This document shows positions 22,023-61,282 of a DNA stretch of 64,000 bases, in pieces. Within the stretch, counting starts at the first letter, position 1. Every line of letters starts with the position of its first letter. The stretch lies in the NCBI GenBank assembly GCA_964493145.1, contig CAZBMV010000001.1, forward strand, positions 54,623-118,622, read 5' to 3'. Source of the DNA: an uncultured Candidatus Saccharibacteria bacterium. GTDB taxonomy: Bacteria > Patescibacteriota > Minisyncoccia > Phycocordibacterales > UBA918. A program made the position numbers and the translations under genes. Under the pieces are notes generated by a model, which was not told the DNA's origin, did not search any database, and saw only the letters and a list, made by a program, of their open reading frames with translations.

Positions 22023-22107
22023 GGACCAAAGAAGGTTTTGGCACAAAAAGTGATGTCTTTCGCATGGTGGCGAAAAGTGCTACATTTAACTCCATAATCT
22101 AACGTCT

Positions 22108-40079: not shown

Positions 40080-40108
40080 AAATTTAGAAATACAAAAACC
40101 AACACTTT

Positions 40109-40142
40109 TATATTATAATTCCCCATGGGGAATTATAATATA
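40109..40142. repeat. perfect 34-bp palindrome TATATTATAATTCCCCATGGGGAATTATAATATA (copy 1; dyad extends to 40105-40146)
   Basis: Exact copies at 40758-40791 and 53597-53630, each with its own extra dyad-symmetric flanks. Confidence 0.8.
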
Positions 40143-40154
40143 AAAGTGTAATGT

Positions 40155-40724
40155 ATGGAGAAAAAGGAAAAAAAGAATGAGAGAATAAAACTGGGACCAA
40201 TTGGTGAAGCAATACTCGGAGTGGTTGCGGTTACAGGCATGGTTACTGTTTTTGCGGTATTCCCTGGTGTGACAACAGTTATCGCCCCCTTTTTAAAAAA
40301 GAAAAAATACTCACCAAAGCAAGCGATTGAAAGAAATATTAACTCACTCATCAAAAAAGGAGTTCTCAAAAAAGTAACTGACTCATCAGGAAACGAAAAA
40401 CTTGAACTCACAAAACGAGGACGATGGGAGGCCGCTCTCCGGTTTACTTCTCAAGATAGAAAGCAAACAAAATGGGATGGAGTTTGGAGAGTGGTGATAT
40501 TTGACGTACCACAATCAAAAGCAAAAGAACGAGGAGAACTTCGCAGGGCAATGCGTTTTTTCGGATTCAAACTTCTTCAAAAAAGCGTGTGGGTATATCC
40601 TTTTGCATGTGATGACTTCATTACACTTCTCAAAGATCATTTCGGTGTCTCGCGCGATGTTCTCTATATGAAAGTGTCACACATTGAAAACGACAAGCAT
40701 CTTAGGAGAGAGTTTGGTTTGTAA
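40155..40724 (+). CDS. membrane-anchored PaaX-family-like regulator (TM helix + wHTH-like + PaaX_C-like domain)
   Basis: TM helix IGEAILGVVAVTGMVTVFAVF; LIKKGVLKKVTDSSGNEKLELTKRG resembles the PaaX wHTH wing; TKWDGVWRVVIFDVPQSKAKERGELRRAMRFFGFKLLQKSVWVYP resembles the PaaX WDGxW...GFG core. Bracketed by the 34-bp palindromes. Confidence 0.45.
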   Translation: MEKKEKKNERIKLGPIGEAILGVVAVTGMVTVFAVFPGVTTVIAPFLKKKKYSPKQAIERNINSLIKKGVLKKVTDSSGNEKLELTKRGRWEAALRFTSQDRKQTKWDGVWRVVIFDVPQSKAKERGELRRAMRFFGFKLLQKSVWVYPFACDDFITLLKDHFGVSRDVLYMKVSHIENDKHLRREFGL

Positions 40725-40757
40725 ATAAGCCAGCGCAACTTATTTTGTAACACAACT

Positions 40758-40791
40758 TATATTATAATTCCCCATGGGGAATTATAATATA
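40758..40791. repeat. perfect 34-bp palindrome, copy 2 (dyad extends to 40751-40798)
   Basis: CACAACTTA-[core]-TAAGTTGTG. Confidence 0.8.
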
Positions 40792-40844
40792 AGTTGTGTT
40801 CAACGGGAGCATTGGAACAATAGGTATGATTGTTTGAAAACAAG

Positions 40845-41993
40845 TTATTGCAGATCAAACATCCAGAGCGCATTGTCGTTCTTGTTGATGAAGTAGAGCG
40901 CCGATTCATCCGGTGCAATGCCAATCGTGAGCACGTCAACCTCTCGTCCCGTTTCCGTAAGAAAATTGCTTAATACCGTTGCTTTGCCTTCTCTAATATC
41001 AATTCGCCAGAGCACGTCACTGTAGGAGATGCTCCCCATGTACCAATCATCAGGAAATCGCTTCCCTGCACCGAGGTCTTCAGGTGCAGAACAGTACAGG
41101 TATGAAGAACCACTGATACACTTTTCCGGAATGACAGTAATCGGAACAACGGAAGGGTTCCCCTCAGAAAGGTTTGCGAGAGAGTAGACAACACCATCAG
41201 CAAGCACCGTTGTAATCGGTGTTGCGTGGTGCACAATACCCATAAGGCCATACCCACCCGCGGTTACGTACCGAAGCCTATTTTTAGACACTTCATAAAG
41301 TGACCCTCGCTGCATTGCTGTTGGAACAGTGTACACGTACGTTGTCTCGCCCCAAATTACGTGGATATCCCGAAGCGGGATGCTAAACAACTGCACGGTC
41401 GTTTCTTTTTGCACATCGTATGCGTACCCCACAGAACCACTTTCATCCTTGAGTAGGTAGTACAACGTGCTCGTCGCTTCTCCAAAATGTATTTCAGTTG
41501 CTCCTGCCGGTAATTTTTTTCCTACGAATGAGCCACCCTGTGCTGATGCAAGTGTTCCAACGAGCGTTTCTGTATTAAGTTGAGACAGAAGCGTGATCGC
41601 AACAGAAGCGCCGTTTCGTGAAAATACTGCCTCGCGTGCACCAGGGAGCGTTGTGCCACTGATGAGTGACTCAGAACCATTCGCGGTGTTGATTTGGTAG
41701 ATGTGTCCGGTCCCCTGCTCCACGTAACGTATACCACCATCAACAAAACTCGCTCCCGCGACAGGGCGAACGGTAAGTTGTTTCAACTTCTGTATCTTAC
41801 CTGCGATGTTTATATCCTGAACATCAACGACCGAGTCATGAACTGCGACATCAGACGAATTTCCTCCAATACCAAAGTTTGAAAAAACTTCCGAACCATT
41901 CTTGGGAGACCCGAAGGTGAAAAGGTACGCCCACACACCTAGAATGATGAGAATGAGAAGGGTTCCTATAATAATGAGAATTGTTTTTTTCAT
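40845..41993 (-). CDS. secreted/membrane-anchored repeat-rich protein (beta-propeller-like), first gene after the T4SS-like cluster
   Basis: N-terminal TM/signal, Gly/Ser/Thr-rich repeats, no catalytic motifs. Confidence 0.4.
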   Translation of the reverse strand: MKKTILIIIGTLLILIILGVWAYLFTFGSPKNGSEVFSNFGIGGNSSDVAVHDSVVDVQDINIAGKIQKLKQLTVRPVAGASFVDGGIRYVEQGTGHIYQINTANGSESLISGTTLPGAREAVFSRNGASVAITLLSQLNTETLVGTLASAQGGSFVGKKLPAGATEIHFGEATSTLYYLLKDESGSVGYAYDVQKETTVQLFSIPLRDIHVIWGETTYVYTVPTAMQRGSLYEVSKNRLRYVTAGGYGLMGIVHHATPITTVLADGVVYSLANLSEGNPSVVPITVIPEKCISGSSYLYCSAPEDLGAGKRFPDDWYMGSISYSDVLWRIDIREGKATVLSNFLTETGREVDVLTIGIAPDESALYFINKNDNALWMFDLQ

Positions 41994-42736
41994 TGTGGCA
42001 TACCTTGATTTCCGTCATTACCGTAAGACGCATCTCCATAAGTACATTCTCCAACTGAAGCACTTATTATTGTGAACGTACCACTACGTGCGCTACATTG
42101 CGCGCGCGCACCACTATCATCGTAATCAACGATGTTATAACACGAAGGACAAACAGGATCAAAAATAGGAGTAAGTGAGTAACGCTCCGTTTGTATGGTA
42201 ACGTTTGTGTTTCGAATCGCCTCATCGGCAAGTTGTTCTGACGTTCTACCTTCGCCCGTATCGATGCCACCTGCTCCTGTTCCCCGCGAAGACTGATTAA
42301 GTTGAACTTTCGTTGCGTTTTCCAACACATTCAATTTCGTGAGTTCCGGGTTGATGGTGTAGAGCACGATGTACGGGAGGAGGAGTATGGCAAGTCCCAT
42401 GAGCACGCCTTTAATATCATCTTTAGCAGAAGATTTACCAGTCACCACTTCAGTTGTCGCATATTTAACACCCGCGATGGCTATTTTTACAACACCGAAA
42501 AGCGCACCGATGGAAATGAGGAGAATGTATATTTTGTTTATGTAATCAGGAAGGCTCGTCGCACCAGATGTATTGAGTCCGGGGACGTTCACGAGGGGCG
42601 TGTATTTTGCCGTCTGTGCGAGAGTGGGAGTCGCAAAAACAGCAACAAAGAAAAAAACTAAAAAGACAAGAGAAAAAACGCGGGCGAGATGAGTTTTTGT
42701 TGTACATGAAGAAAACATACGCTTATTCAAAAACAA
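41990..42736 (-). CDS. TrbC/VirB2-like pilin candidate with Cys-rich C-terminal extension
   Basis: Signal peptide, then two hydrophobic helices (ILLISIGALFGVVKIAIAGV and VLMGLAILLLPYIVLYTI) separated by a short polar loop, as in VirB2/TrbC. Confidence 0.4.
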   Translation of the reverse strand: MFLNKRMFSSCTTKTHLARVFSLVFLVFFFVAVFATPTLAQTAKYTPLVNVPGLNTSGATSLPDYINKIYILLISIGALFGVVKIAIAGVKYATTEVVTGKSSAKDDIKGVLMGLAILLLPYIVLYTINPELTKLNVLENATKVQLNQSSRGTGAGGIDTGEGRTSEQLADEAIRNTNVTIQTERYSLTPIFDPVCPSCYNIVDYDDSGARAQCSARSGTFTIISASVGECTYGDASYGNDGNQGMPQ

Positions 42737-43733
42737 GATTCAGTGCCTTTTCAATAAATTGTGGGACAGTACCTTTTGTGACCACCCGATACTCCACCTG
42801 TGCGGAGCCCGCCCCGCCCGTGCGTGCCAAAACGAGCGCGTTGGGGATACCTGTCTTTGATTGTACCTCGGTACCGTCAAGTTTCCACACAAAATCAGCA
42901 CTCTGTGCCGTTAAAGCGGTATTGAGGAAAAAGGGCTCACCGAAAAGGGTTGTTTCGTCACTCACAAACGAGAACGGATTTCGCACTTCACGGAGGAGGA
43001 GCCCGAGGAGCGGACTGTGTTCGTAAAAGTGTACCTCGGGTTCAACAAGATTTATTTCCACTTCCCCCCTTCCCACAGAGCGCCCATCATTCGCAAAAAC
43101 TTCAACGGAGATCTCTTCTTCACCAAACAGGGACGACGTGATGGTTACGGCATACCTTCCCTTAACCGGCCCCCCAAAAAGAACAGATCCCGCACGACTC
43201 CATTTATACGTGTACGCGGAGAGGGGCATGCTTGAGCCGTCGTCAACAACAGCGACGAGTTTCATTGGGGTGTTGTGTGTGGGGAGGCGGCGACCTTTGT
43301 AGAATGTGGGAACGTACGAATCTGTTTCAACAACAACATCCACGACGGAAGGTGTAAGGGTAATTTCTTTTGAGAGCGAAGGCGCTCCCGTTTTTGTGAG
43401 GACGACACGAACGGAAAGTTTTTCACCCACGTCACCCGTACGAAGAGAAATGGAGCGTTCGTTCTCAAGGTCAGACCGCCTTTCTCCGTCCACAAACCAT
43501 GAAACAGTCGCACCTATCGCATCTACCGAATAGTCATCAAGCGAAACAACGACAGTTGAGTGGGGGGCGGGGTACGATGGACGTGTGGTGAGCTGAACCC
43601 CAGCGCCGCCCAGTGCGGCAAATTGCGCATGGGCAGGAGAAAAGGAAACAAGAAACAAACCGAAAGCCAACCCAAAAAACCATAGAGAGTGAAGACGTTT
43701 CATGTTCCCAACCATATACAGTAAGTGTATCAC
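42723..43733 (-). CDS. secreted hypothetical protein (signal peptide)
   Basis: 336 aa with signal peptide, beta-rich; coupled to the neighbouring genes by overlaps. Confidence 0.4.
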   Translation of the reverse strand: MIHLLYMVGNMKRLHSLWFFGLAFGLFLVSFSPAHAQFAALGGAGVQLTTRPSYPAPHSTVVVSLDDYSVDAIGATVSWFVDGERRSDLENERSISLRTGDVGEKLSVRVVLTKTGAPSLSKEITLTPSVVDVVVETDSYVPTFYKGRRLPTHNTPMKLVAVVDDGSSMPLSAYTYKWSRAGSVLFGGPVKGRYAVTITSSLFGEEEISVEVFANDGRSVGRGEVEINLVEPEVHFYEHSPLLGLLLREVRNPFSFVSDETTLFGEPFFLNTALTAQSADFVWKLDGTEVQSKTGIPNALVLARTGGAGSAQVEYRVVTKGTVPQFIEKALNLVFE

Positions 43734-43794
43734 GCTACAGACATTCTCTGCTTAACTAATAAACAAAAGAGAGTTATTCCCAGGGTAGTCCTCA

Positions 43795-44490
43795 TTACCG
43801 CACAGCCTTTGTATTTTTGCTAAACAAAATATAACACACCCAAATAACAAGCCACGGAAAGAGATTTGTTACAGGGAAGATATTAAGCGCTAAACAAACA
43901 GCGGTCACAAATGTTGTCATTGTTGTTGCTAGGGGGTCAATTTCAAACAAATAAAATACAAACATGTAACAAATGAAAAGCACAAGAGTCATAACAACAA
44001 CTACAATCCAGAGCGCATACCCGAGAGGTTCAAAAAACAGCCAGTCTTGGAAATCAAACATCTTTCCAAGAAGTTTTCCGTACCACGTTTCATGTCGCAC
44101 ATGCAATACCACGCCATGGAGACCAAAACCAACAAGAGAACCCAATGCACAAACCAACTGGATGACGTACGCAAACAGAATTATTGAAATTGTAAAACGA
44201 AATGCTGTTTTCGTAACAACGCCAGCCGGTTTCATTTTTTTGGTAAGACTCCTTTTCAGGTTTCGTCTAACGTACTCATTCTTTGCCACACGAAGCGCTT
44301 CTGCCGTTTGGGACACAGTCCCCTCGGTACGTTCACCAGGTTCTTCCACAGGAATTTCATTCGTTTCAACACCCCTTTCTTTTTTTTCCCAATAATCAGC
44401 AAGGAGGCGTTCGTCGGTTGTTTGGCGTGATGGTAAGGAAGAAACCTTCTCATTCCAATCCTTTTGCTTGGCTTCATCAATATGTGGCAT
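43795..44490 (-). CDS. polytopic membrane protein of the T4SS-like cluster
   Basis: 231 aa, charged N-terminus plus 4 TM helices. Confidence 0.4.
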   Translation of the reverse strand: MPHIDEAKQKDWNEKVSSLPSRQTTDERLLADYWEKKERGVETNEIPVEEPGERTEGTVSQTAEALRVAKNEYVRRNLKRSLTKKMKPAGVVTKTAFRFTISIILFAYVIQLVCALGSLVGFGLHGVVLHVRHETWYGKLLGKMFDFQDWLFFEPLGYALWIVVVVMTLVLFICYMFVFYLFEIDPLATTMTTFVTAVCLALNIFPVTNLFPWLVIWVCYILFSKNTKAVR

Positions 44491-44495
44491 AGTGT

Positions 44496-46292
44496 CTATG
44501 TACTACCTCGTGCAAGTTCCGCACGCGCTTGCTGTATCTGGAGGAGTTGCGATGGGTCGGACGTGATGATTTGGTCTTCCGTGTATGACGCCATGACCTT
44601 AATCGCGACGTGCTTAAGGCCGACGAAGAAGATACCCTCCCCCACCCCTGACTCTAAAAGCATGAACTTTTCTTCATCGGTGAGGTTGAACACGCTCTGG
44701 AGTGTGTCAATCGCCGTCGGTGATTGCTTCATGAGAAGCTGAATGGATGAATTCGTGATCATCGGAACGCCGTACGGTGAGCGAAGGAAATCGTCCACGT
44801 CTTGTGTGATTGTTGAGAGGCCGAGGTAGTACTTTCGTCCGCGCTTTGCGACATTGTGGAGAAAGGCGGCCGTGTCGGGGGATTTGAGCATCCACCACGC
44901 CTCATCAATGACGAGGAGGCGCTTTTTGAGTTCACGACGAACCGCACCCCAGATGTGGTTCGTGATGATGTACATGGCGATGGTCTTCAACTCCTCCTCC
45001 ATGTCACGGAGAGAGAAGACGATGAACTTTTGATTGATGTCCACATTTGTCGGTTCGTTCATGAAGCCCGCCCACGTACCCGATGTGTACTTTGTGAGGC
45101 GTTGTACCAATGATTCGCTCCCCTCCATTCCCGCGAGTACCATTTCAAAATCCGAGAGGAGGGGTGGCGGGAGGTCGCGATAGTCACCGTTTCCCGTGAT
45201 GTCCTTGAGGGCATACACCTCGTGAAGCGCCGCATCAATGATGGCGTCTTCTTCCGGCGTGAGTCCGCCGAGCATGAGACGCATGAGCCCCACGAGTTCA
45301 ATAATGTGCGAGCGGAGAAGTTCCTTCGGATTTTCATCGGCTTGCGGTACGGGGAGATCAAACGGATTGATGTGGTGACTTGAGGAGAGCGAGATGTTGA
45401 AGAAGCGACCACCGGTTGCTTCCGCGAGGTACTCGTACTCACGTTCCGGATCAATGACGATGACTTCCGTACCGAACATGAGCGAGCGGAGAATTTCCAG
45501 CTTTGTCGTGTACGACTTTCCCGCGCCGGATGTTGCGAAGGTGACCGAGTTGTAGTTTGTGAGCTTGAAGCGATCAAAGAGCACGAGGGAACTGTTGTGA
45601 CGATTGATGCCATAGAGAATGCCGTTGTCCGAGGTGAGATCAAACGAGGTGAACGGGAAAAAACTGGAGAGTGGCGAAGAGTTGAACTTCGTGTGCACGA
45701 GGAGCATGTCGGAAACGGTGGGAATGACACTCAAGAACCCCTCTTCTTGCTGGAAAAGTGCCGGCTTAATGTAGACGAGCCGTGCATCAAGAATACCCTT
45801 TACTTCAGTTTCCATTTTGTTGAGAGTCGCCTCATTGTCGGCGTAGAGCGCAATGTAGAGGCCGACGTTAAAAAGCTTCTCTTCCGCTTGCTGAAGTTTG
45901 TCACGGAGGTCCTCAAGGTTGCGGTATGCGGCATCAAGTTGCGGGTCGCGAACCATCCCCTTCTCGGCACGCTCATTGATTTGGCTCTGAACCTCAGCGA
46001 CCTTTTTTTGGAATTTCTTAAGAGTCTCTGTCGTGTTGATAGGGTGCACAACGATAGACACATCAATTTCCCGCTCAAGGTTGAGGACAGGTTCAAGCCA
46101 CCCGTCATTGAGGTACCGCGGGTACGACACCGCAAAAAAGACACGTGAGAGGCGTCCGCTCACATTGAGACTGCGCGGATTTATACTTATTGCGGACGGA
46201 GCAACAACATCGGTGAGCGAGAGCGGAGTGTTCGCCGGCGTTGCTTCTGTAGCATCTTTCTTTTTTTGTTGTATAAAATCAAAAAGACTCAT
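44496..46292 (-). CDS. virB4: VirB4/TrbE/CagE-family type IV secretion ATPase
   Basis: Walker A FATSGAGKSYTT, Walker B LLVIDEAWWML, the GRKYY motif, and the N-terminal FFAVSYPRYLNDGWL region typical of VirB4. Confidence 0.8.
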   Translation of the reverse strand: MSLFDFIQQKKKDATEATPANTPLSLTDVVAPSAISINPRSLNVSGRLSRVFFAVSYPRYLNDGWLEPVLNLEREIDVSIVVHPINTTETLKKFQKKVAEVQSQINERAEKGMVRDPQLDAAYRNLEDLRDKLQQAEEKLFNVGLYIALYADNEATLNKMETEVKGILDARLVYIKPALFQQEEGFLSVIPTVSDMLLVHTKFNSSPLSSFFPFTSFDLTSDNGILYGINRHNSSLVLFDRFKLTNYNSVTFATSGAGKSYTTKLEILRSLMFGTEVIVIDPEREYEYLAEATGGRFFNISLSSSHHINPFDLPVPQADENPKELLRSHIIELVGLMRLMLGGLTPEEDAIIDAALHEVYALKDITGNGDYRDLPPPLLSDFEMVLAGMEGSESLVQRLTKYTSGTWAGFMNEPTNVDINQKFIVFSLRDMEEELKTIAMYIITNHIWGAVRRELKKRLLVIDEAWWMLKSPDTAAFLHNVAKRGRKYYLGLSTITQDVDDFLRSPYGVPMITNSSIQLLMKQSPTAIDTLQSVFNLTDEEKFMLLESGVGEGIFFVGLKHVAIKVMASYTEDQIITSDPSQLLQIQQARAELARGST

Positions 46293-46297
46293 AGGTG

Positions 46298-46918
46298 TTA
46301 CCGTTGCGGTGCTTGTGAAAGGTCCTCGGGATTAAAAATGTGGTAGTACAGTTCGGTGAGTTCGTCTGTTCCCAGAGGCGCGGTACGGATGCCGATGCGC
46401 GCGAGCCCCTGCTCCACGACAGACACGCGCTGTTCCAACTGCATGCGGTCTTCAAAAAATTTATCTGAGACACCTCCCCCCTTTTTTGTTTTCGGCTTAA
46501 GGAATTTCCCTATACCCTCAACCTCAAGCGACGCTGACCTATACGGCACAATGACAAAGAAATTCTTTGTCATAATTTCCACTTCGCTCGTAAAGGTGGT
46601 AATGAACTCCATGTACTCTCGCAACTGAATGCGCATGAGGTCGTTGTCTTGATGCGATTCTCTCTCTTTGAGGATTTCTAGGTACGGCCGTATATCAAGA
46701 CGTCGCGACTGAGCGTATATTTGGAGAGAAAAGTCCACCGCATTAAGAAATGCCTGAAATTGAGAGAGAATCGCCTGCTGTTCTTCGGATGCTTTGAGCG
46801 CAAAGTTTATGGAAGAGGCGAGGAGCACCATACACATTTGCCCATCTTTAAGAATGACGACATCATCGTGAATGTCTGCAATGGGAACAAATTGTTGCGT
46901 TGCGTTTTGTGTTGTCAT
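46298..46918 (-). CDS. T4SS-associated protein resembling the extreme N-terminus of Gram-positive VirB4 (possible split VirB4 N-fragment)
   Basis: VPIADIHDDVVILKDGQMCMVLLASSINFALKASEEQ resembles the DG.I.KDG...L.V..INF.L.S.EEQ start of TraE/TcpF-type VirB4. Stops 5 nt before the VirB4 start. Confidence 0.4.
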   Translation of the reverse strand: MTTQNATQQFVPIADIHDDVVILKDGQMCMVLLASSINFALKASEEQQAILSQFQAFLNAVDFSLQIYAQSRRLDIRPYLEILKERESHQDNDLMRIQLREYMEFITTFTSEVEIMTKNFFVIVPYRSASLEVEGIGKFLKPKTKKGGGVSDKFFEDRMQLEQRVSVVEQGLARIGIRTAPLGTDELTELYYHIFNPEDLSQAPQR

Positions 46919-46920
46919 AA

Positions 46921-47322
46921 TTAACGTTCGGTTTGATTGAGCTCAAGTTTTTTAGTCAGCGCCGAAATGGAATTTTGGTGAACGGAAGAAAGATCTGATG
47001 TTTGCTGGGCTTCTTCCCCGTAGCCGTTTGTCACCGTCTGTGAGGATTCGCGTTTCCAAAGGTACAGTTTATTCTTTGTCGTATACCGCGCCGCTGACTC
47101 AAGGAAGAGTGAGAACGGGCGATTGTTGACGCGGTGAAATGCGAGCGAAAAAGAGAGGGCGGCAATCGGGAGGCCAAAGAGAATCGCCAAAATAAAAGGA
47201 GCGCTCAAAAAAAGAATGACGAGGATGCCCACTCCACCGGCGAGGTACACGAACTGGCGCCACGTAAGGGGGCCAATAACCTTGTCTTCAATCTCAATGA
47301 ATTGAGGAACCTCAAAGCGCAT
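46921..47322 (-). CDS. PrgI/VirB3-like small membrane protein
   Basis: MRFEVPQFIEIEDKVIGPLTWRQFVYLAGGVGILVILFL...; hydrophobic hairpin, positioned before VirB4 as in Gram-positive T4SS. Confidence 0.45.
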   Translation of the reverse strand: MRFEVPQFIEIEDKVIGPLTWRQFVYLAGGVGILVILFLSAPFILAILFGLPIAALSFSLAFHRVNNRPFSLFLESAARYTTKNKLYLWKRESSQTVTNGYGEEAQQTSDLSSVHQNSISALTKKLELNQTER

Positions 47323-47378
47323 ATATCAGTATTGTACCTTATCCGCACGCCCGCTCCCCCACGGGCGTGCGGATAAAA

Positions 47379-47930
47379 CTACTCACCCGCCCTTTTCCCC
47401 TCCTCGTATGCTTCGTACCCTCGTACGGGAGAGGAGGCACCGGACTCGTCTTTGATAGACGCAATATCTTTTTGCATGGTGCGTGTTGGCGCAATTGCCC
47501 TAAGCACCTCTTCGCGTGTGAGCGGACGCGGGCTATTCTCGTTTGTACCACTCGCGTTCTCAATTCCTTCGGGACGGAGCTCAAGTTTTTCACGAGTGTC
47601 TTTATTTGCACTCGGTAACACAACTGTTTCAGCAGTAGCATTCAGCGAATTAAAAAAGACACCAATAGTTTTTTCAATTTCAGGTATATGCGCAGAATCA
47701 ATTCCCAAAGCAGAAAGTTCATTTTTAAAATCTTCAGGCGACTTAAAACCAAGAATTGTATCGCCAATTAAGTCAATGAAAGCAAGTCTTTTTTGCTCAT
47801 CAAAATTATTTTTTGTTACCAATACACCAATAACTTCTCCTAGCTCTAGGCTACCGTATAGATTTTTTACCGGCACACTAGCATTTCGGTATGCAAGAAG
47901 CCTTTTTTCAGAGGTGATAGTGTCGTTCAT
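47379..47930 (-). CDS. hypothetical protein of the T4SS-like cluster
   Basis: 183 aa, no motif; stop abuts the start of the upstream gene. Confidence 0.35.
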   Translation of the reverse strand: MNDTITSEKRLLAYRNASVPVKNLYGSLELGEVIGVLVTKNNFDEQKRLAFIDLIGDTILGFKSPEDFKNELSALGIDSAHIPEIEKTIGVFFNSLNATAETVVLPSANKDTREKLELRPEGIENASGTNENSPRPLTREEVLRAIAPTRTMQKDIASIKDESGASSPVRGYEAYEEGKRAGE

Positions 47931-47931
47931 A

Positions 47932-50199
47932 TTAGAATCTTGAACCTGCCGGAGTACTAAAGAAATTATTAAATGCGTTATTCCCGTGGATCATTTGAAC
48001 ATTTCGTTTAATGTTCGCTCTCGCCGTGTCGTCAATTGAATCATTATCAAGTATTTTTGTGAGTACATTTGCGTTTAGATGCTGCGCTGCTTTAACATCA
48101 GTAAGAATTTGAACAGGAAGATTTGCTCTCTCAGAATCATTACGAATTCTTCCAAACAAACGTGTTGCTGAAGCGGGGGTTGAAACACCTGCGGGCGCAA
48201 ATTCTGTAATAAGTGAAGTGTTTCGGGCATTTTTGAGAACAGATTTTTCGCTGGGGGTGAGGTTCTTCATGTCGTGGATCTGTTTTGATGTCAAGTGACC
48301 GGCATGTTGGACAAGTGTGTTGAAGTCCATTGCATCAAGATCACTTGCATCTGCTTTGCTAATATTCCCAGCATTTCCTCCTGCGCCTCCCGATACCCCA
48401 TGTTTATTTTGAACGTGAATTGAGCGAGCAGAGCGTAATTTCGCTTTCTTCTCATCGTCAAGGTCTTCAGACTTTGCTTTCATTAAGGATTCAAACTGAG
48501 AAGAAGACATATTTTCCACGAGAGCATTATATTCGGGAGTTCCCTCTTTATGTTTTTCAAGAAGTTTCAAAAGTTGTTCATTTGAAGCGTTTGTGATGGA
48601 ACGTTCCATGTCAATTCTTTGTTGGCTTCCAGTAGGTGCCGAATGACCTGCGGCAATATTGGCACCAATATTACTGACTTGGGCACTTTGTGCCCTAGCT
48701 CTCTTAATTTCTTTTGTTTCATCTTTTTTGTCCTTGAATGTTTTACTGCCACCGTAATTACTTTTCGCCGCTTTTGTTGCAACTGCGTTTATTCCAGTGG
48801 CACGCATAGCTAGGGCACCAATTTGCGCGCCTCTAGTATTGCTTTTGCGTAATGAATCCTGTTTGTCGGCGACCCACTGACCAGCACGACCAATCGTGTT
48901 GCGTCCCATCCACCCGGTAGCACCTTTACGAAGATTATCACCGGCGCCAATCATCATTCCCGCACCCTCAACCCCAAGCTTCTTTGCCACGAGTAGAGAT
49001 TGGATGAGGAAGAAAATGATGACGGAAAAGTTTAGGAACATGTAGTATGAATCCGCCTGTTCCCCATTGGTCATCGCTTTCATGAAACTTCCACCTGAAC
49101 CAATAAGGTTGAGCCCACCAATGAGTGTGAGTGAAATGAGTGTGAGAAAAAGGTAAATTGGTGCGAAAAAAGCTTGTGCAAGCAGTTTTCCCCAAAGTGA
49201 GGACGCCATGCTTGCCGTTTTTGGGAAAATAGTTGCGGCAAAAAGAATCGGTGAGGCAACCATAATGAGAATGAGAATCACAAACCGAATCACGAGCAGT
49301 ACCGCAGCAGCGAAGAACACAAATGCCGCAATGAAGAGAACTAATGCGCCGAGAACGTAGAACCAAACCATGCCAGCTTTTGTTACGTTGTTGAAAGTGT
49401 TCGGGTCAGGTGCTTTGAAAATGGTTGTAATTCCAAGACGATCAGCAACAGCAGCGGAAATGGTACCCCCCCCGTCTGTCATGGAGGTATAAATTTGGTA
49501 TGAAGTATAGTTTCCGAAATCAACAACAAATTTCACAATGAAGAGACTGAAGTTGATGAGGAGCGCACCGATGATGATGCGTGAGAGTGTTTGCTTTATA
49601 AAGTGACTATCCGGGTCAATAATGGCTCTGATGCCGAGGTAGATGAATCCGAAAATAAAAGCCAGGTTTGCAAAGTCACGAACGAGTTTCCACGCGTTAT
49701 CTATCGCCAAACCAAATGATTGTGTATTGACCATGTCGCCCATACCAAAAACAAATTTTTGGAGTGCAGCATCAAGAAGCGTCCCTCCTACCCACGTAAA
49801 CGCGGACGCCATTGTGAGAATGAGGTTACCGATGTACTGACCAACTTGTGACCAAAAACCACCGTCCTCTTTTTTCTTGTCTTTCGCTGTAGCAGCTTGG
49901 TTTTTTGCTTCCGCTTCTCTCCGCACCTCTTCTTGCCACTGTTGGTTGAGGGCGTCGTTTTCAGCCTGTCTTTCATCATAAGTCTGTGTATCGTTTTGAT
50001 CTGCGATAGCGCCAAGATCTACATTTGAGGTATCAACCCCTTGAGTATTGCCGCGCGTATAGTCAACAGCAGTAGGATCAGCGTCTTGAGCAAAACCAAC
50101 ACGCACCATTCCAAAAAAAGAAAAGAGGAAAAGAAGTGCAATCGCCAAAAGGGTTGTTCTCTCCCCGAGCGTATTTTTTTGTTGATGCAGAGAAGTCAT
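47932..50199 (-). CDS. VirB6/TrbL-like polytopic membrane protein with long hydrophilic C-terminal extension
   Basis: Signal-like N-terminus (MTSLHQQKNTLGERTTLLAIALLFLFSFFGMV), ~8 TM helices, then a ~330-aa polar tail. The ORF-track start (50400) overlaps the upstream gene by 200 nt and is trimmed. Confidence 0.45.
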   Translation of the reverse strand: MTSLHQQKNTLGERTTLLAIALLFLFSFFGMVRVGFAQDADPTAVDYTRGNTQGVDTSNVDLGAIADQNDTQTYDERQAENDALNQQWQEEVRREAEAKNQAATAKDKKKEDGGFWSQVGQYIGNLILTMASAFTWVGGTLLDAALQKFVFGMGDMVNTQSFGLAIDNAWKLVRDFANLAFIFGFIYLGIRAIIDPDSHFIKQTLSRIIIGALLINFSLFIVKFVVDFGNYTSYQIYTSMTDGGGTISAAVADRLGITTIFKAPDPNTFNNVTKAGMVWFYVLGALVLFIAAFVFFAAAVLLVIRFVILILIMVASPILFAATIFPKTASMASSLWGKLLAQAFFAPIYLFLTLISLTLIGGLNLIGSGGSFMKAMTNGEQADSYYMFLNFSVIIFFLIQSLLVAKKLGVEGAGMMIGAGDNLRKGATGWMGRNTIGRAGQWVADKQDSLRKSNTRGAQIGALAMRATGINAVATKAAKSNYGGSKTFKDKKDETKEIKRARAQSAQVSNIGANIAAGHSAPTGSQQRIDMERSITNASNEQLLKLLEKHKEGTPEYNALVENMSSSQFESLMKAKSEDLDDEKKAKLRSARSIHVQNKHGVSGGAGGNAGNISKADASDLDAMDFNTLVQHAGHLTSKQIHDMKNLTPSEKSVLKNARNTSLITEFAPAGVSTPASATRLFGRIRNDSERANLPVQILTDVKAAQHLNANVLTKILDNDSIDDTARANIKRNVQMIHGNNAFNNFFSTPAGSRF

Positions 50200-50200
50200 A

Positions 50201-51706
50201 TTAGAAATTTGTCTCCTGACATGCGTTATCAATGGAACCGGTGAAGGACGAAATTTCGGTTTGCAAGTTCGGAATGGTTTGCAATTCAACGGACACGAGT
50301 TGTGGAGCGGAATGCAAATTATTTCCGTCGCGGAACGCCATAAATCGTTCCATAATACGTGATTGTGCTGCGGGGATTGATGTTGCATTGTACTTTTCAA
50401 GGAGTGAGTTTATCGTCGCACCGGGAGTTGATGAATTTTCCAGTGCAGAGTAATCGGCGAGCCAGACGTTAAGTGTTGCAATAACTGTTTGCGCTGAAGC
50501 AATCGCAGTTTGCGCTGAGCTCAGTTGACTTTGGAGCGACGAGGTGAGGTTGCCGGGGGTACAGACCTCGTACACCTCATTTCCGCTATCGTCGGTTGTT
50601 GTCGCTCCGGGGTACACTCGTTCTCGGTACGTTGAGGCATCAGTGATGAGATTGACAATTTGTTGCTGAAGACCGAGGTAGCGTTCCTCATTTGTTATGG
50701 CGGTTCTCAGTGCGGAGTTTGCACCCTCAGAAGCACCGGTAACATCGGTTGAATCTTGCATTGGCTCATCACGCATTCGGTCAAAGTAATCTCCGGAAGA
50801 ACCGTTCCCCGGTTCGGTGAGACCGAGGAGCCCACCGACACCACCTAACGCTTCACCTACGAGTTGTGCAAAGAGAGCTCCGACGAGCTCATTGATCTCA
50901 TCCGCGGCAGCAATTCGTTGGTTCGTAAGACCCAGAGCACTGTTTAATTGGTCTTCAATAACAGAACCGGGAGTGATAATGTTTCCATAATCGTCTTCCC
51001 TGGAGAGAAATCCCTTACCAAACTCAAGAAGTTTAATTTCTTGCCCCTGCGCATTGCTGATGCTTGCGTACATTGCCGTGTTTGCCTCAAGGTATGCACT
51101 GTATGGGTTGTTCCCCGGCATGAGTGCCATTTCGTACCACCCATCCCAGCCACCCGCGAGGAAGTTTCCGTTCATAAAACTTTCCATATTGCTCACGACG
51201 CCACTCAGCGTACATTGCGCTTGGTAGTTGCGACGTTGGTTGTACTGCATCTGGAGTGCAAGTTGAACGTTAAGCTTAAACGGCGAACAGAGAAACTTGA
51301 GCGGTGAACCCCAAATGAAATCACCCGCTACTCTGTCAGCGATATTCATGAGGAATCCCTCAAGGTCGGTCACAAAGGCGGGGCTCCCCTGAAAGCCCGA
51401 GTTCACCCACTTGGTCGTACTCTTGATCATTTGTTGAATAGTGAGGTTGACGAGTTGCCACGCGATTTTATCAAGGACATACTCCTTTGTCGCCAGACTT
51501 TGAATGGAGGCGGACGTTATGGCATCAAACGCCGCGGAGATTGCACTTTGCACCCACGCGCCTATTTCTCCGACGATATTATCATCAAACGAGTGCGCCT
51601 TTTGAACCGTTAACGACTGCGAGACCGGAGCAAAAACAAAACTTGAAACAAGAACAAAGGAGGTGGCGATGAGGGTTACTTTTTTAAGAAATGAAGGCGA
51701 CATCAT
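50201..51706 (-). CDS. secreted hypothetical protein (501 aa)
   Basis: Signal peptide; Gly/Ser/Asn-rich; no motif. Confidence 0.4.
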   Translation of the reverse strand: MMSPSFLKKVTLIATSFVLVSSFVFAPVSQSLTVQKAHSFDDNIVGEIGAWVQSAISAAFDAITSASIQSLATKEYVLDKIAWQLVNLTIQQMIKSTTKWVNSGFQGSPAFVTDLEGFLMNIADRVAGDFIWGSPLKFLCSPFKLNVQLALQMQYNQRRNYQAQCTLSGVVSNMESFMNGNFLAGGWDGWYEMALMPGNNPYSAYLEANTAMYASISNAQGQEIKLLEFGKGFLSREDDYGNIITPGSVIEDQLNSALGLTNQRIAAADEINELVGALFAQLVGEALGGVGGLLGLTEPGNGSSGDYFDRMRDEPMQDSTDVTGASEGANSALRTAITNEERYLGLQQQIVNLITDASTYRERVYPGATTTDDSGNEVYEVCTPGNLTSSLQSQLSSAQTAIASAQTVIATLNVWLADYSALENSSTPGATINSLLEKYNATSIPAAQSRIMERFMAFRDGNNLHSAPQLVSVELQTIPNLQTEISSFTGSIDNACQETNF

Positions 51707-52649: not shown

Positions 52650-53531
52650 TTAACTCTGTGGAGAGAGAGGTTGATTTTGATGTGTGTAGAGTTTGTGCGC
52701 GAGCGCGAGCCACTTCTCAAGAGGAACGTCTTCCCCGCGGACGTCTTCCCTAAGGCCGAGTGTGGAAAAAGTGGGGGTAAGAACATCGCGCGCAACCATA
52801 CCGGAAAGATTTCCAATGAGTTGCTTCCGCCTTGACTTGAACCCACAGTGGAGCACCGAGAAGAAAAATTCCTGAAAAGAAGGTGTCTCCCCCGCATTCC
52901 CTAGGGTTCCCCTAGGGAATGCGGGGGGAGACAGGCGGTCTTTTGAAATGTGCTGAACTGCGAGAATGGCCGAATCAATCTTTGGAGGAGGCATGAAATT
53001 GCCTTTTGTGACGGTTTTTACGTACCGTGGTTCACCAAAAACCTTTACAGAGAGCGACAAAACCGACTCCTTCTCGCTTCGTGCAATGCGCTCGGCGACC
53101 TCTTTTTGTACAAGAAAAACGAGAGTTAATGGGGGTATGTCATGCTCAAGAAAATGGCGAAAAAGAAAGCCGGAAATGTAGTAGGGGATGTTTGCTATGA
53201 GTTTGTAGGCACTCGGCCGAAGGCCGAGTGCCCCGAGGTCAACATTCCGTACATCATCATGCACAATAACAAGCTTTTTAGCCGTAATTTCCTCCTCAAA
53301 GGTTTTTTGAAGTGCTTCAACGGCACGTATGTCTGCCTCTATGGCGACAACATTTGCCCCACGAATGAGAAGTTCACGAGTGAGCATGCCGGTCCCGGGG
53401 CCTACCTCAAGCACTACATCACCCCTTTTTACCTCTCCCGCTTCCGCCATTGCCTCTGAAATACGGGGATTTTTGAGAAAATGCTGCCCCAAAGACTTTT
53501 TTGCATCAATCTTTCCTATCCTTTTTTTCAT
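52650..53531 (-). CDS. ksgA: 16S rRNA (adenine1518/1519-N6)-dimethyltransferase
   Basis: LGQHFL, VLEVGPGTGMLT (motif I), NIPYYIS; contains a 46-nt palindromic in-frame segment (see repeat at 52885). Confidence 0.85.
   Translation of the reverse strand: MKKRIGKIDAKKSLGQHFLKNPRISEAMAEAGEVKRGDVVLEVGPGTGMLTRELLIRGANVVAIEADIRAVEALQKTFEEEITAKKLVIVHDDVRNVDLGALGLRPSAYKLIANIPYYISGFLFRHFLEHDIPPLTLVFLVQKEVAERIARSEKESVLSLSVKVFGEPRYVKTVTKGNFMPPPKIDSAILAVQHISKDRLSPPAFPRGTLGNAGETPSFQEFFFSVLHCGFKSRRKQLIGNLSGMVARDVLTPTFSTLGLREDVRGEDVPLEKWLALAHKLYTHQNQPLSPQS
52885..52930. repeat. 21-bp inverted repeat with 3-nt spacer embedded in-frame in ksgA (TCTCCCCCGCATTCCCTAGGG-TTC-CCCTAGGGAATGCGGGGGGAGA)
   Basis: Seen directly; encodes the PAFPRGTLGNAGETPS segment of KsgA. 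Confidence 0.7.
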
Positions 53532-53585: not shown

Positions 53586-53639
53586 TTCCGCCGCTTATAT
53601 TATAATTCCCCATGGGGAATTATAATATAAGCGGCGGAA
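53586..53639. repeat. 54-nt perfect palindrome containing the third copy of the 34-bp core; abuts the pcrA stop, ~50 nt upstream of the ksgA start
   Basis: TTCCGCCGCTTA-[34-bp core]-TAAGCGGCGGAA. Confidence 0.8.
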
Positions 53640-57712: not shown

Positions 57713-57779
57713 GCCATTCGGGCTTTTTCTTTTTCAACGGTCAGTACTTTCTCTCCCAAAAAATTAGGAAAATCACATT

Positions 57780-57813
57780 TATACCATAACGCGCATATGC
57801 GCGTTATGGTATA
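57780..57813. promoter_or_regulatory. perfect 34-bp palindrome TATACCATAACGCGCAT|ATGCGCGTTATGGTATA between the TrmB-like regulator gene and the membrane-protein gene; candidate operator
   Basis: Seen directly; 8 nt after the regulator stop and ~70 nt before the downstream start. Confidence 0.45.
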
Positions 57814-57821
57814 AACGGTGG

Positions 57822-59105: not shown

Positions 59106-59378
59106 TCAATCTTTCCACGCAGACCCCAGTCTGACTGCGTGTAATAAATGAATGGGACGCTCGTAGAGAATACAAGTACGAGCATGGTGGGGCATAAAAG
59201 ACCGAACCCCTTCCAAAAGCTTTTCCGGTAGATACGCTTAGACTACCCGTTCGCCCTTACGTGAAAGTGGTCTGGCGAGTTGAGTGAATTCACCTCCTCG
59301 CCATCTTTATACAGTTTTTAAGGAAACTTGAAAACTTTTAGAGATTTGTTCCTTCAAAATCAACCTGAGGAGACGAAC

Positions 59379-59651: not shown

Positions 59652-59910
59652 CATGGAGCAGGTTCCGAGGCGACCTGAACAAAACGTCTCAAACAACACG
59701 CCCGAATGGTGGAATCACTTTCACCCTTCGGGCTTTTTCTTTTTGGGCACGTATACCATAAGTTCCGATCGGAACTTATGGTATAAATATTTTTTGTGGA
59801 ATCTTAAGTGCAAACCGTTACACGTCCCGCGTATCCTACGCACACCCGTATGTCTATTGACGGTAATATATAAATTTGCTACACTTTATATACAGTAAAT
59901 TCATATATTT

Positions 59911-61207: not shown

Positions 61208-61282
61208 TCTTCATTCTGAAGCTGGGCGCTTCAAGCACGTGTGACTCTTTCAGTGCATCGGATTCTTCAAGGTCGGCTATCG

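What the first reader, a model, noticed from the sequence alone, without database searches (positions are those of the whole stretch)
40105..40798. Membrane-anchored PaaX-like regulator bracketed by two copies of a perfect 34-bp palindrome
- Repeat: the 34-mer TATATTATAATTCCCCATGGGGAATTATAATATA occurs exactly three times in 64 kb: 40109-40142, 40758-40791 and 53597-53630.
- Dyad extension: each copy carries different flanks that extend the perfect dyad (42, 48 and 54 nt: CTTTTA/TAAAAG, CACAACTTA/TAAGTTGTG, TTCCGCCGCTTA/TAAGCGGCGGAA). The flanks covary to keep the hairpin, which argues for selection on the hairpin itself rather than a simple protein half-site.
- Gene context: two copies sit 12 nt upstream and ~30 nt downstream of a 189-aa ORF. 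That ORF combines an N-terminal TM helix, a wHTH-like wing (LIKKGVLKKVTDSSGNEKLELTKRG) and a WDGVWRVVIFDV...GFKLLQKSVWVYP segment that I read as PaaX_C-like (WDGxW motif).
- Candidate roles: an autoregulatory operator pair, a REP/RAYT-type hairpin element, or a small cassette that can move with its palindromic ends.
Basis: partly seen in the sequence, partly recalled or inferred. Interest (0 to 1): 0.75.

Follow-up and report, generated by a model that had tools for sequence, protein, structure and literature searches.

The report
PaaX-like gene bracketed by private palindromes
A small DNA-binding protein gene in a Patescibacteria (candidate phyla radiation) genome sits between two copies of a long perfect palindrome, and relatives in this group nearly always carry their own lineage-specific version of this layout, which most likely means the protein binds these sites to control its own gene.

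Summary
The 34-mer occurs exactly three times, and none is expected by chance. Each copy sits inside a perfect palindrome of 48, 52 or 54 nt with its own flanks. Two copies bracket a 189-aa ORF.

The ORF is PaaX-like but was mislabelled. The WDGxW segment is the PaaX central Cas2-like domain (PaaX_M, E=4e-18), not PaaX_C. There is no effector domain. The best fold match is E. coli PaaX.

The new result is comparative:
- The family is large (about 3,200 clusters at 50% identity), and every named genome among the 80 loci examined is Patescibacteria/Parcubacteria.
- 67 of 86 family genes share an exact 12-mer between their upstream and downstream flanks, against 27 of 681 control ORFs.
- The repeated element is typically 34-42 nt. 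It ends within about 30 nt of the start codon and restarts within about 40 nt of the stop in most loci inspected.
- It is near-identical within a genome and different between genomes.
- It is a perfect or near palindrome with inverted outer boxes.

Best reading: these are the protein's own binding sites. The upstream one overlaps its near-leaderless promoter, giving autorepression. A REP/RAYT-like hairpin-repeat system built on a Cas2-like protein is not excluded.

I rate this a new variant of a known kind, of moderate to high interest.

The parts
40102..40149 (.). Upstream palindrome, copy 1. A 48-nt perfect dyad, with the 34-mer core at 40109-40142. The right arm carries -10-like hexamers TATAAT (40134-40139) and TATAAA (40139-40144), 10-15 nt before the ATG.
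   Evidence: As RNA it folds to -29.1 kcal/mol, z = -7.8. On the minus strand it is followed by a T-tract and scored as terminator-like.
40155..40724 (+). 189-aa protein. It has a hydrophobic N-terminal segment (about residues 14-46), a winged-helix region (recognition helix about 54-67, wing 71-85) and a Cas2-like PaaX_M domain (105-180). There is no PaaX_C domain.
   Evidence: Pfam PaaX_M E=4.3e-18. AlphaFold model pLDDT 78. Foldseek top hit is PaaX 8a39, E=8.6e-6. Hydropathy. Family alignment A1 has invariant W107, W111, R112, D117, R126, Q142, S144, P149 and C152.
40749..40800 (.). Downstream palindrome, copy 2. A 52-nt perfect dyad, with the 34-mer core at 40758-40791. It lies between the stop of the ORF and the stop of the convergent T4SS-like operon (40845..).
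   Evidence: It folds to about -34 kcal/mol on either strand. No T-tract follows it on either strand.
53586..53639 (.). Distal palindrome, copy 3. A 54-nt perfect dyad, with the core at 53596-53629 and GC-rich outer arms TTCCGCCGC/GCGGCGGAA. It lies 1 nt after the stop of the UvrD/PcrA-like helicase (minus strand). Its centre is about 81 nt upstream of the rsmA ATG.
   Evidence: The orthologous intergenic region in three relatives holds other hairpins or a canonical terminator, not their own box palindrome.
57778..57815 (.). Fourth site of the same format, with box TATACCATAA and inner CGCGCAT|ATGCGCG. It lies 6 nt after the stop of a TrmB-family wHTH gene (57822-58610, minus strand).
   Evidence: In L083 the orthologous TrmB gene also has a box palindrome after its stop, but with that lineage's inner core.
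59752..59785 (.). Fifth site of the same format, with box TATACCATAA and inner GTTCCGA|TCGGAAC. It lies in the divergent region between 59307-59699 (minus strand) and 59911-61053 (plus strand).

Best explanation
**What it is.** The ORF encodes a truncated PaaX-type DNA-binding protein. It has a winged helix and a Cas2-like dimerisation domain, no ligand-binding C-domain, and a hydrophobic N-terminal anchor. The palindromes are its own cognate binding sites.

**How it most likely works.**
- A dimer places its two winged helices on the inverted outer boxes (TATATTATAA / TTATAATATA, centres 24 bp apart). This resembles the way PaaX uses TGATTC-N27-GAATCA.
- The upstream site overlaps the -10 region of the gene's own near-leaderless promoter, so binding represses the gene (autoregulation).
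- The downstream site, just after the stop codon, is a second operator. It either loops with the first or blocks transcription entering from the convergent operon.
- The distal copy and the two other box-format sites are extra sites of a small regulon.

**How the sequences evolve.** The site sequence is private to each lineage and evolves in concert between the copies in one genome. The perfect, copy-specific dyad extensions are most simply a by-product of hairpin template-switching at an already long palindrome.

**Shown:** the homology, the family-wide bracketing, the site format and its position on the promoter.

**Inferred:** that this protein binds the sites, that binding represses, and looping or roadblock.
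For: 1. **Fold and homology to a known autorepressor.**
   - PaaX_M scores above threshold.
   - The whole-length structural best hit is E. coli PaaX.
   - PaaX binds TGATTC(N27)GAATCA and represses its own Px promoter (PMC9493321).
2. **Family-wide bracketing.**
   - 67 of 86 family genes share an exact 12-mer between the 250-nt upstream and downstream flanks, against 27 of 681 control ORFs.
   - 16 of 86 against 2 of 681 have matched long palindromes on both sides.
   - Long palindromes occur at 0.55/kb near the gene and 0.037/kb elsewhere.
3. **Hairpin-perfect sequence is not required.** In many relatives the flanking element is 97-100% identical between the two copies but only quasi-palindromic. 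It keeps inverted 9-10-nt outer boxes around a non-complementary spacer (L004, L010, L057, L059; L090). Both direct and inverted relative orientations occur.
4. **Position on the promoter.**
   - The upstream copy ends within 30 nt of the start codon in most loci inspected.
   - In several loci a TAnnnT hexamer in the right arm lies 6 nt before the ATG (L026, L034, L046).
   - This is the same layout as many other leaderless genes in this window.
5. **The outer box is specific.** TTATRRTATA occurs 10 times in 64 kb, only as inverted pairs 14 nt apart.
6. **Stable host gene.** Copy number is low. Synteny is conserved within sublineages, next to yidC, gyrB or parB/topA. No relatives were found in viral contigs.
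Against: - No binding data exist. The link between protein and site is purely associative.
- In this lineage the variable inner 14 nt and the copy-specific flanks are perfectly self-complementary. Outer-box recognition alone does not need this.
- The three copies are 100% identical over 34-38 nt, and orthologous sites in close relatives are completely different. DnaA is 88-91% identical in those relatives, yet the inner 7-mers are unrelated. That is faster and more concerted than usual for operators.
- In L083 the palindrome after the TrmB ortholog carries the same inner core as the palindromes that flank the family gene in L082, from the same metagenome, and in L001. In the window the TrmB-adjacent inner core differs from the flanking one. 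The inner core therefore does not behave as a simple specificity code.
- The family keeps the residues conserved in Cas2 (D117, Q142, S144). The PaaX-like Rv0674 lacks them. This hints at more than dimerisation.
- A hydrophobic segment replaces the first two helices of a normal winged helix.
Confidence: 0.5

Rival explanations
1. **REP/RAYT-like system built on a Cas2-like protein.** The palindromes are hairpin-forming repeat elements. The protein recognises them as DNA hairpins or cruciforms through its winged helix. Through its Cas2-like domain it nicks them, copies them or homogenises them. The gene with its two flanking repeats is the master unit and the distal copies are its offspring.
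For: [quoted passage not shown] Their palindromy is kept by complementary mutations and they co-evolve with the REPs (PMC2817692).
- The arms change strictly by Watson-Crick covariation with no one-sided changes.
- Flanks are copy-specific and symmetric.
- Copies are 100% identical within a genome, with complete turnover between close relatives.
- Distal copy 3 is absent from the orthologous intergenic region in three relatives.
- The Cas2-motif residues D117, Q142 and S144 are invariant. Rv0674 lacks them.
- A true Y1_Tnp gene bracketed by palindromes exists in a Patescibacteria locus, L018. Such systems therefore operate in this group.
Against: - There is no HUH/Y1 transposase domain.
- Copy number looks low: 3 copies in 64 kb, and about 4-6 found on roughly 580 kb of contigs from one metagenome.
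- Many family members have flanking elements that cannot form good hairpins.
- The flanking copies are in direct orientation about as often as inverted. RAYT flanks are always inverted.
- The position after the TrmB ortholog is conserved between genomes, which suggests a functional site rather than a random insertion.
- Cas2 homology gives no known transposition chemistry.
Confidence: 0.2
2. **Structural hairpins not bound by this protein.** The palindromes act as transcript-end elements: bidirectional terminators, RNase III or processing sites, or mRNA stabilisers. They insulate a short gene wedged between operons. The protein is an unrelated neighbour.
For: - Very stable hairpins form on both strands, at -22 to -43 kcal/mol with z of -7 to -10.
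- Four of the five sites in the window lie right after a stop codon.
- Copy 1 is followed by a T-tract on the minus strand.
- The orthologous helicase-rsmA spacer in a relative holds a canonical terminator.
- Canonical terminators in this window are also perfect palindromes.
- Strict Watson-Crick symmetry is what a hairpin used on both strands would need.
Against: - The association is specific to this gene family across unrelated genomic contexts: 78% against 4%.
- In L001, L002, L003, L045 and L046 a canonical A/T-tract terminator follows the downstream palindrome. The palindrome is therefore not the terminator there.
- Copies 2 and 3 have no T-tract.
- The upstream copy overlaps the promoter and start codon, so it would mostly not be in this gene's own mRNA.
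- Many relatives have poor hairpins.
- The conserved 10-nt outer box is not explained by structure alone.
Confidence: 0.12
3. **Recombination sites.** The two flanking elements make the gene an invertible or excisable cassette. The crossover would fall at the central dinucleotide, as in hix/gix or serine-integrase sites.
For: - One class of relatives has an otherwise perfect palindrome with an asymmetric 2-nt centre, CG-GT-CG or CG-AC-CG. In 5 of 5 such pairs the two copies are inverted (L013, L045, L053, L060, L078).
- Position and orientation of the gene differ between L090 and L093, relative to the ATP-grasp and PHP genes. The two proteins are only 51% identical, so orthology is uncertain.
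Against: - No recombinase is encoded nearby in the window.
- The window's sites and the CTATAG class are fully symmetric, which would give no polarity.
- Counting all asymmetric pairs, direct orientation is at least as common as inverted.
- Gene orientation relative to yidC is constant in all six loci of that lineage (window, L001, L002, L003, L089, L092).
Confidence: 0.04
4. **Chromosome-membrane tether or centromere-like complex.** The hydrophobic N-terminus holds the protein at the membrane. The palindromes, near dnaA, yidC, gyrB or parB, are anchoring sites. The function is structural (Noc-, RacA- or AspA-like) rather than regulatory.
For: - The hydrophobic N-terminus is conserved.
- Several sublineages place the gene next to origin-proximal genes: dnaA-rpmH-rnpA-yidC, gyrB, and parB/topA.
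- There are weak profile and fold hits to the centromere-binding winged-helix protein AspA.
- L090 has a tandem array of four sites downstream of the gene.
Against: - Other members sit in a polysaccharide gene cluster.
- The topology is unknown.
- The AspA similarity is at the level of a generic winged helix.
- This reading still requires the binding assumed in the best explanation, so it is a variant of that explanation rather than a true alternative.
Confidence: 0.08

Closest known systems
PaaX, the phenylacetyl-CoA-responsive repressor of E. coli and Pseudomonas (PDB 8a39; Pfam PaaX, PaaX_M, PaaX_C)
   Same: - It has a winged helix followed by the Cas2-like middle domain. It is the best whole-length fold match and shares the PaaX_M domain.
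- PaaX is an autorepressor. Its operator is two short inverted boxes far apart, TGATTC-N27-GAATCA.
- Here inverted 10-nt boxes lie 14 nt apart, and one site is on the gene's own promoter.
   Different: - About 190 aa instead of about 310, with no PaaX_C effector domain.
- It scores 25.7 against a 264.55-bit equivalog cutoff.
- The N-terminus is hydrophobic.
- It keeps Cas2-motif residues that the PaaX-like Rv0674 lacks.
- It has a second operator after the stop codon.
- It has no link to aromatic catabolism genes.
REP elements with their RAYT (Y1/HUH) transposase (Nunvar et al. 2010, PMC2817692)
   Same: - A single-copy host gene is bracketed by two copies of a lineage-specific palindrome.
- The downstream copy lies right after the stop codon.
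- Further copies lie in intergenic regions.
- Palindromy is kept by compensatory changes, and repeat and gene change together.
   Different: - The protein has no Y1_Tnp/HUH domain.
- Copy number appears to be a handful, not hundreds.
- Flanking copies are direct as often as inverted.
- Many family members have only quasi-palindromes.
- There is no GTAG-type head.
Cas2 (CRISPR adaptation protein, ferredoxin-fold nuclease)
   Same: - There are weak but consistent hits of residues 111-149 to several Cas2 models, with E of 4e-4 to 1.5e-2.
   Different: - It is below every Cas2 threshold.
- It is fused to a winged helix.
- No CRISPR-like array was found in the window, and none of the window proteins scanned with Pfam (21 ORFs, about a third of those called) gave a Cas domain.
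- Some databases name family members 'Cas2', which is an over-annotation.
Membrane-tethered one-component regulators (ToxR, CadC) and membrane-associated site-specific DNA binders (Noc). Recalled from general knowledge, not tested here.
   Same: A DNA-binding domain is attached to a hydrophobic or membrane-binding segment, with a small set of palindromic chromosomal sites.
   Different: - There is no sequence relationship.
- Here the hydrophobic segment is N-terminal and immediately precedes the recognition helix.
- Topology and membrane insertion are unproven.

Membership tests
PaaX family (transcriptional repressor) | PaaX_M central Cas2-like domain | tested here: met
   PF20803 at 65.6 bits against a cutoff of 24, residues 105-180. 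All listed homologs carry it.
PaaX family (transcriptional repressor) | N-terminal winged-helix DNA-binding domain | tested here: inconclusive
   There is no Pfam PaaX N-domain hit. The AlphaFold model has helix-helix-helix-wing topology, and Foldseek aligns 186 columns to PaaX 8a39. The first two helices are the hydrophobic segment, at pLDDT about 58-77. Profile hits to MarR and AspA are weak, at E of 0.0015-0.01.
PaaX family (transcriptional repressor) | C-terminal PaaX_C effector (phenylacetyl-CoA) domain | tested here: not met
   There is no PaaX_C hit. The protein ends 9 residues after the PaaX_M match.
PaaX family (transcriptional repressor) | Equivalog-level score (TIGR02277) | tested here: not met
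   25.7 bits against a cutoff of 264.55.
PaaX family (transcriptional repressor) | Binds widely spaced inverted boxes, including one on its own promoter | not testable with these tools
   The sequence layout is compatible. Binding itself needs an experiment.
Cas2 | Score above the Cas2 model thresholds | tested here: not met
   PF09827 at 15.9 against 23.8, and TIGR01573 at 18.6 against 24.5. PADLOC Cas2 models give E of 4e-4 to 9e-3.
Cas2 | Conserved beta1 Asp and Q-x-S-V motif | tested here: inconclusive
   D117, Q142 and S144 are invariant in A1.
Cas2 | Association with cas1 and a CRISPR array | tested here: not met
   No CRISPR-like array was found in the window. None of the window proteins scanned with Pfam (21 ORFs, about a third of those called) gave a Cas domain.
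REP/RAYT system | Y1 (HUH + Tyr) transposase domain in the bracketed gene | tested here: not met
   There is no PF01797 hit. As a positive control, the L018 ORF scored 28.4 bits on Y1_Tnp.
REP/RAYT system | Gene flanked by two copies of the repeat in inverted orientation | tested here: inconclusive
   Flanking is met: 67 of 86 against 27 of 681. Orientation is undefined for the window's perfect palindromes. Among asymmetric relatives about 8 pairs are inverted and about 13 direct (hand tally).
REP/RAYT system | Palindromy preserved by compensatory changes | tested here: met
   99.6% of cells pair, 14 of 17 pairs change on both sides, and none changes on one side only. The sites were found as palindromes, so some ascertainment bias applies.
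REP/RAYT system | High genomic copy number (usually more than 100) | not testable with these tools
   Only 64 kb of the source genome is visible, with 3 copies and 2 related sites. The exact core is absent from both public collections. The L001-type core was found at 7 related sites on 6 contigs, plus 2 unrelated hits.
Intrinsic terminator | GC-rich stem-loop followed by a T-tract | tested here: not met
   Only copy 1 on the minus strand qualifies. Copies 2 and 3 lack a T-tract. In relatives a canonical terminator follows the palindrome.

The most novel reading that the evidence does not exclude
The family is a Cas2-derived, non-HUH counterpart of the REP/RAYT partnership. In this reading a domesticated winged-helix/Cas2-like nuclease recognises hairpin or cruciform forms of a private palindrome. 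It keeps a small family of these elements identical within each genome, by nicking and templated repair or copying. That would explain four things: the perfect dyads, the copy-specific symmetric flanks, the complete sequence turnover between close relatives, and the obligatory copies at both ends of its own gene.
Probability: 0.17. Interest if true: 0.85.

Novelty: new variant of a known kind. Interest (0 to 1): 0.62.

Why it matters
Patescibacteria have tiny genomes, and little is known experimentally about their regulators. This family is large: about 3,200 clusters at 50% identity, often with several paralogs per genome. Each member comes with a readable, lineage-private DNA element at both ends of its gene.

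If these are operators, this gives hundreds of natural protein-site pairs for one simple fold. That would be a ready-made data set for how winged-helix/PaaX-type specificity evolves. It would also be a first handle on gene control, and possibly membrane tethering of DNA, in organisms that cannot be cultured alone.

If the Cas2-like domain instead acts on the hairpins, it would be a second, independent invention of the REP/RAYT lifestyle. It would also be a new activity for the Cas2 fold.

The result corrects database names as well. Members are annotated as 'PaaX' or 'Cas2', and both names over-state what is known.

Tried and rejected
- **Exact core in public collections.** Searching ATTATAATTCCCCATGGGGAATTATAAT found nothing in genome contigs or metagenome contigs. 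A genome-wide count for this organism was therefore not possible. The window's own protein is not in the contig index.
- **Phage origin.** No relatives were found in viral contigs. PHROGs gave nothing meaningful.
- **Defence system.** PADLOC gave only sub-threshold Cas2 hits.
- **Rfam.** The window yields only tRNAs, with nothing at the palindromes.
- **DnaA boxes, dif/Xer sites, parS- or Noc-like sites.** I considered these from the CATAA...TTATG arms and the origin-proximal position. I rejected them by inspection. The box does not match TTATCCACA, and the central region is 14 nt and palindromic, not 6-8 nt.
- **Centre class against recognition helix.** I looked for residues in the recognition helix that track the CTATAG or CGGTCG centre classes. 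No obvious correlation appeared.
- **Inverted-orientation rule.** The first 5-of-6 result did not hold once quasi-palindromic relatives were included.
- **Insertion polymorphism of copy 3.** The orthologous spacer in three relatives lacks a box palindrome. These genomes are too divergent (RsmA about 61% identical) to tell insertion from site turnover.
- **Literature.** Searches for PaaX with Cas2-like, and PaaX with Parcubacteria, returned nothing.
Full report
**1. Checking the observation**

The 34-mer TATATTATAATTCCCCATGGGGAATTATAATATA occurs three times, even when 3 mismatches are allowed. The copies are at 40109-40142, 40758-40791 and 53596-53629. None of 100 dinucleotide-preserving shuffles gave a match.

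Each copy is the core of a longer perfect, zero-loop palindrome:

| Copy | Coordinates | Length |
|---|---|---|
| 1 | 40102-40149 | 48 nt |
| 2 | 40749-40800 | 52 nt |
| 3 | 53586-53639 | 54 nt |

The sequence outside the shared core differs between copies and is self-complementary in each. The third coordinate is off by one, and two dyads are longer than stated. Copies 1 and 2 bracket the ORF 40155-40724 (189 aa, + strand).

**2. The protein**

- Pfam places residues 105-180 in PaaX_M, 'PaaX protein central Cas2-like domain' (E=4.3e-18, 65.6 bits, cutoff 24). There is no PaaX_C hit, and the protein ends just after this domain.
- The PaaX equivalog model scores 25.7 bits against a cutoff of 264.55.
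- An AlphaFold model built on a 47-sequence alignment (mean pLDDT 78) gives helices 15-27, 32-47 and 54-67, a two-strand wing at 71-85, then a ferredoxin-like beta-alpha-beta-beta-alpha-beta unit.
- Its best PDB match over 186 columns is E. coli PaaX (8a39, E=8.6e-6), followed by the PaaX-like Rv0674.
- By sequence, the N-terminal half matches MarR-type and AspA winged helices only weakly (E of 0.0015-0.01).
- The first two helices are the hydrophobic stretch. 81 of 83 family members have a 19-residue Kyte-Doolittle window of at least 1.6, with a median of 2.05. Both flanks are lysine-rich. A membrane-inserted helical hairpin with a cytoplasmic body is plausible but unproven.
Rv0674 lacks them. 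Several Cas2 models hit residues 111-149 below threshold.

**3. The family**

- phmmer against 1.84 billion cluster representatives finds 3,187 clusters at E of 0.001 or better and 1,452 at 1e-10 or better. Nearly all of the 150 listed are 170-210 aa and match over almost their full length.
- Of the 80 genome loci kept, out of at least 590 relatives found, every one whose record title gives a taxon is Patescibacteria/Parcubacteria (Paceibacteria, Kaiser-, Zambryski-, Taylorbacteria and others), apart from two records labelled Bdellovibrionales. Several genomes carry two copies.
- No relatives were found in viral contigs.
- Database names for members are 'PaaX' or 'Cas2'.

**4. The key comparative result**

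The closest homolog with a long contig is L001 (67% identical). It has the same synteny: dnaN and dnaA on one strand, then rpmH-rnpA-yidC-X, then a convergent T4SS-like operon. Its gene is also bracketed by two perfect palindromes, but of a different sequence.

This generalises across the family:
- In 1.26 Mb of family loci, long palindromes (loop of 2 or less) occur at 0.55/kb within 250 nt of a family gene and at 0.037/kb elsewhere.
- Of 86 family genes with enough flank, 16 have matched palindromes on both sides, against 2 of 681 control ORFs.
- Dropping the palindrome requirement, 67 of 86 share an exact 12-mer between their upstream and downstream 250 nt, against 27 of 681 controls.
- The shared element is typically 34-42 nt and 97-100% identical between the two copies. 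In most loci inspected it ends within about 30 nt of the start codon and restarts within about 40 nt of the stop. It differs from lineage to lineage.
- In many lineages it is only a quasi-palindrome, with inverted 9-10-nt outer boxes around a spacer that is not self-complementary. Examples are L004, L010, L057 and L059. L090 has one such copy upstream and four downstream.
- Where the element is asymmetric, the two copies are direct in about 13 loci and inverted in about 8 (hand tally). An early impression of obligatory inversion did not hold.

**5. The site format in this lineage**

Eight loci of the closest subfamily (51-71% identical proteins) use a 34-nt format. Six of them are linked to yidC; L005 and L093 lie in other contexts. 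The format is a 10-nt box TATAYYATAA, a 14-nt inner segment, and the inverted box.

- The box is semi-conserved between genomes.
- The inner 7-mer is different in every genome: TTCCCCA, GGGACGA, GCTCCAA, CGTACGG, TGTCCAC, GGGCCGT and TGAACAT. It is nonetheless identical, or nearly so, between the copies in one genome.
- The window holds five sites of this format, with three different inner segments, all perfectly self-complementary.
- The box TTATRRTATA occurs ten times in 64 kb, only in these sites.
- Across 17 such sites, 99.6% of cells are Watson-Crick paired, 14 of 17 pairs change on both sides, and no pair shows a one-sided (G-U-type) change.
- That pattern points to symmetry at the DNA level, or to a hairpin used on both strands. 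It does not point to a one-strand RNA structure. The sites were found as palindromes, so the statistic carries some ascertainment bias.

**6. Position relative to transcription**

- Most genes in the window have a TGnTAnAAT-like -10 element 6-10 nt before the ATG and no Shine-Dalgarno sequence. mRNAs here are therefore largely leaderless (inference from sequence).
- The right arm of copy 1 carries TATAAT (40134-40139) and TATAAA (40139-40144), 10-15 nt before the ATG.
- In L026, L034 and L046 a TAnnnT in the right arm lies exactly 6 nt before the ATG. In several loci the ATG overlaps the outer end of the palindrome. The upstream element therefore sits on the core promoter.
- Copy 2 lies between convergent stops and has no T-tract on either strand. 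Copy 1 has a T-tract only on the minus strand.
- In L001, L002, L003, L045 and L046 a canonical terminator follows the downstream palindrome, so the palindrome is not itself the terminator there.

**7. Distal copies**

- Copy 3 abuts the stop of a UvrD-like helicase. Its centre is about 81 nt upstream of rsmA, which has its own -10 element.
- The orthologous spacer in three relatives holds other hairpins or a plain terminator.
- The site at 57780 lies 6 nt after a TrmB-family gene. The TrmB ortholog in L083 also has a box palindrome after its stop. There the inner core is the same as in the palindromes that flank the family gene in L082, from the same metagenome, and in L001.
- The position can therefore be conserved while the sequence is homogenised within a genome.
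- The L001-type core was found at seven related sites on six metagenome contigs, all intergenic. Their outer flanks differ but mostly stay symmetric.

**8. Interpretation**

The evidence best fits cognate protein-binding sites:
- a PaaX-type dimer, as PaaX itself binds TGATTC-N27-GAATCA and represses its own promoter;
- an upstream site on the promoter;
- family-wide bracketing that does not require hairpin-perfect sequence;
- low copy number;
- stable synteny next to yidC, gyrB or parB/topA.

What this reading does not explain well:
- the perfect, copy-specific dyad extensions;
- 100% identity among copies;
- the rapid concerted turnover;
- the retained Cas2-motif residues.

These features resemble REP/RAYT biology. 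A true Y1 transposase bracketed by palindromes exists in a Patescibacteria locus, L018. I therefore keep a Cas2-based REP-like system as the main rival at about 0.2.

The dyad extensions could also be a mutational by-product of template switching at long palindromes. This is an inference from established work on quasipalindrome mutagenesis and was not tested here.

Terminator or processing hairpins (about 0.12), recombination sites (about 0.04) and a membrane tether (about 0.08, a variant of the binding model) are less supported.

**9. Verdict**

The protein is PaaX-like but is not PaaX, not PaaX_C-bearing and not Cas2.

The palindrome pair is one instance of a rule that holds for roughly four-fifths of a large Patescibacteria protein family. 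My literature searches found no description of this rule.

It is a new variant of a known kind: an autoregulator with flanking private operators. There is a credible chance of something stranger.

Noticed in passing
window 57778-57815 and 59752-59785: Two further palindromes share the 34-nt format and outer box but have different inner segments. They bracket a 1.9-kb segment that holds a TrmB-family winged-helix gene (57822-58610, minus strand). This is a second bracketed regulator in the same window.
   Followed up: partly
window 57714-57734 and 59724-59744: The 21-mer CC(A/C)TTCGGGCTTTTTCTTTTT occurs twice. One copy ends 43 nt and the other 7 nt to the left of one of those two palindromes. 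Its function is unknown.
   Followed up: no
window 21528-22025: A cluster of direct repeats lies downstream of tRNA-Lys. It has CGGGGTCGCGAGTGCTTA four times and a 44-nt hairpin unit three times, with TRF period 81. There is no Rfam match at E of 0.1 or better.
   Followed up: partly
window 7074-7163 and 61282-61379: Two stretches of about 100 nt are 91-93% identical over the matched segments and lie 54 kb apart. The second has no Rfam match. A 79-nt repeat also occurs at 28670, 31931 and 61104.
   Followed up: partly
window, most gene starts (for example 4889-5503, 15910, 33387, 52650-53531, 62923-63294): Genes typically have a TGnTAnAAT-like -10 element 6-7 nt before the ATG and no Shine-Dalgarno sequence. 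This implies widespread leaderless mRNAs in this organism.
   Followed up: partly
window 40845-50400 (minus strand): A T4SS-like operon (TraG/VirB4 P-loop, TrbL/VirB6-like) converges on the PaaX-like gene. This arrangement is conserved in L001 and L092. The paralog loci L090 and L093 also have a VirD4/TrwB-like gene within 10 kb.
   Followed up: no
L018 2926-3734: An IS200/Y1_Tnp (RAYT-like) ORF at 2965-3645 (minus strand) is bracketed by two palindromes whose single central base is inverted (A against T). This is a classical REP/RAYT-style unit in a Patescibacteria genome, 2 kb from a PaaX_M family gene.
   Followed up: partly
L090 9965-9997 and 10583-10922: Five copies of a 33-nt element (TACCGTATACGTAACAGGTGGAAATATACGGTA) surround a paralog. 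One is upstream and four are downstream, in two tandem units of about 170 nt. The element has inverted outer boxes and a non-palindromic spacer.
   Followed up: partly
window 53612, 57796; L085 5110: The centres of three distal palindromes lie about 81-85 nt upstream of the next gene's start codon. This shared distance could mark a regulatory position or be coincidence.
   Followed up: no
L042 17605-17636 and 17899-17928: Two copies of TATACTAGTGTTTTGCAAAACACTAGTATA lie 294 nt apart and are not adjacent to the family gene. What they bracket was not examined.
   Followed up: no
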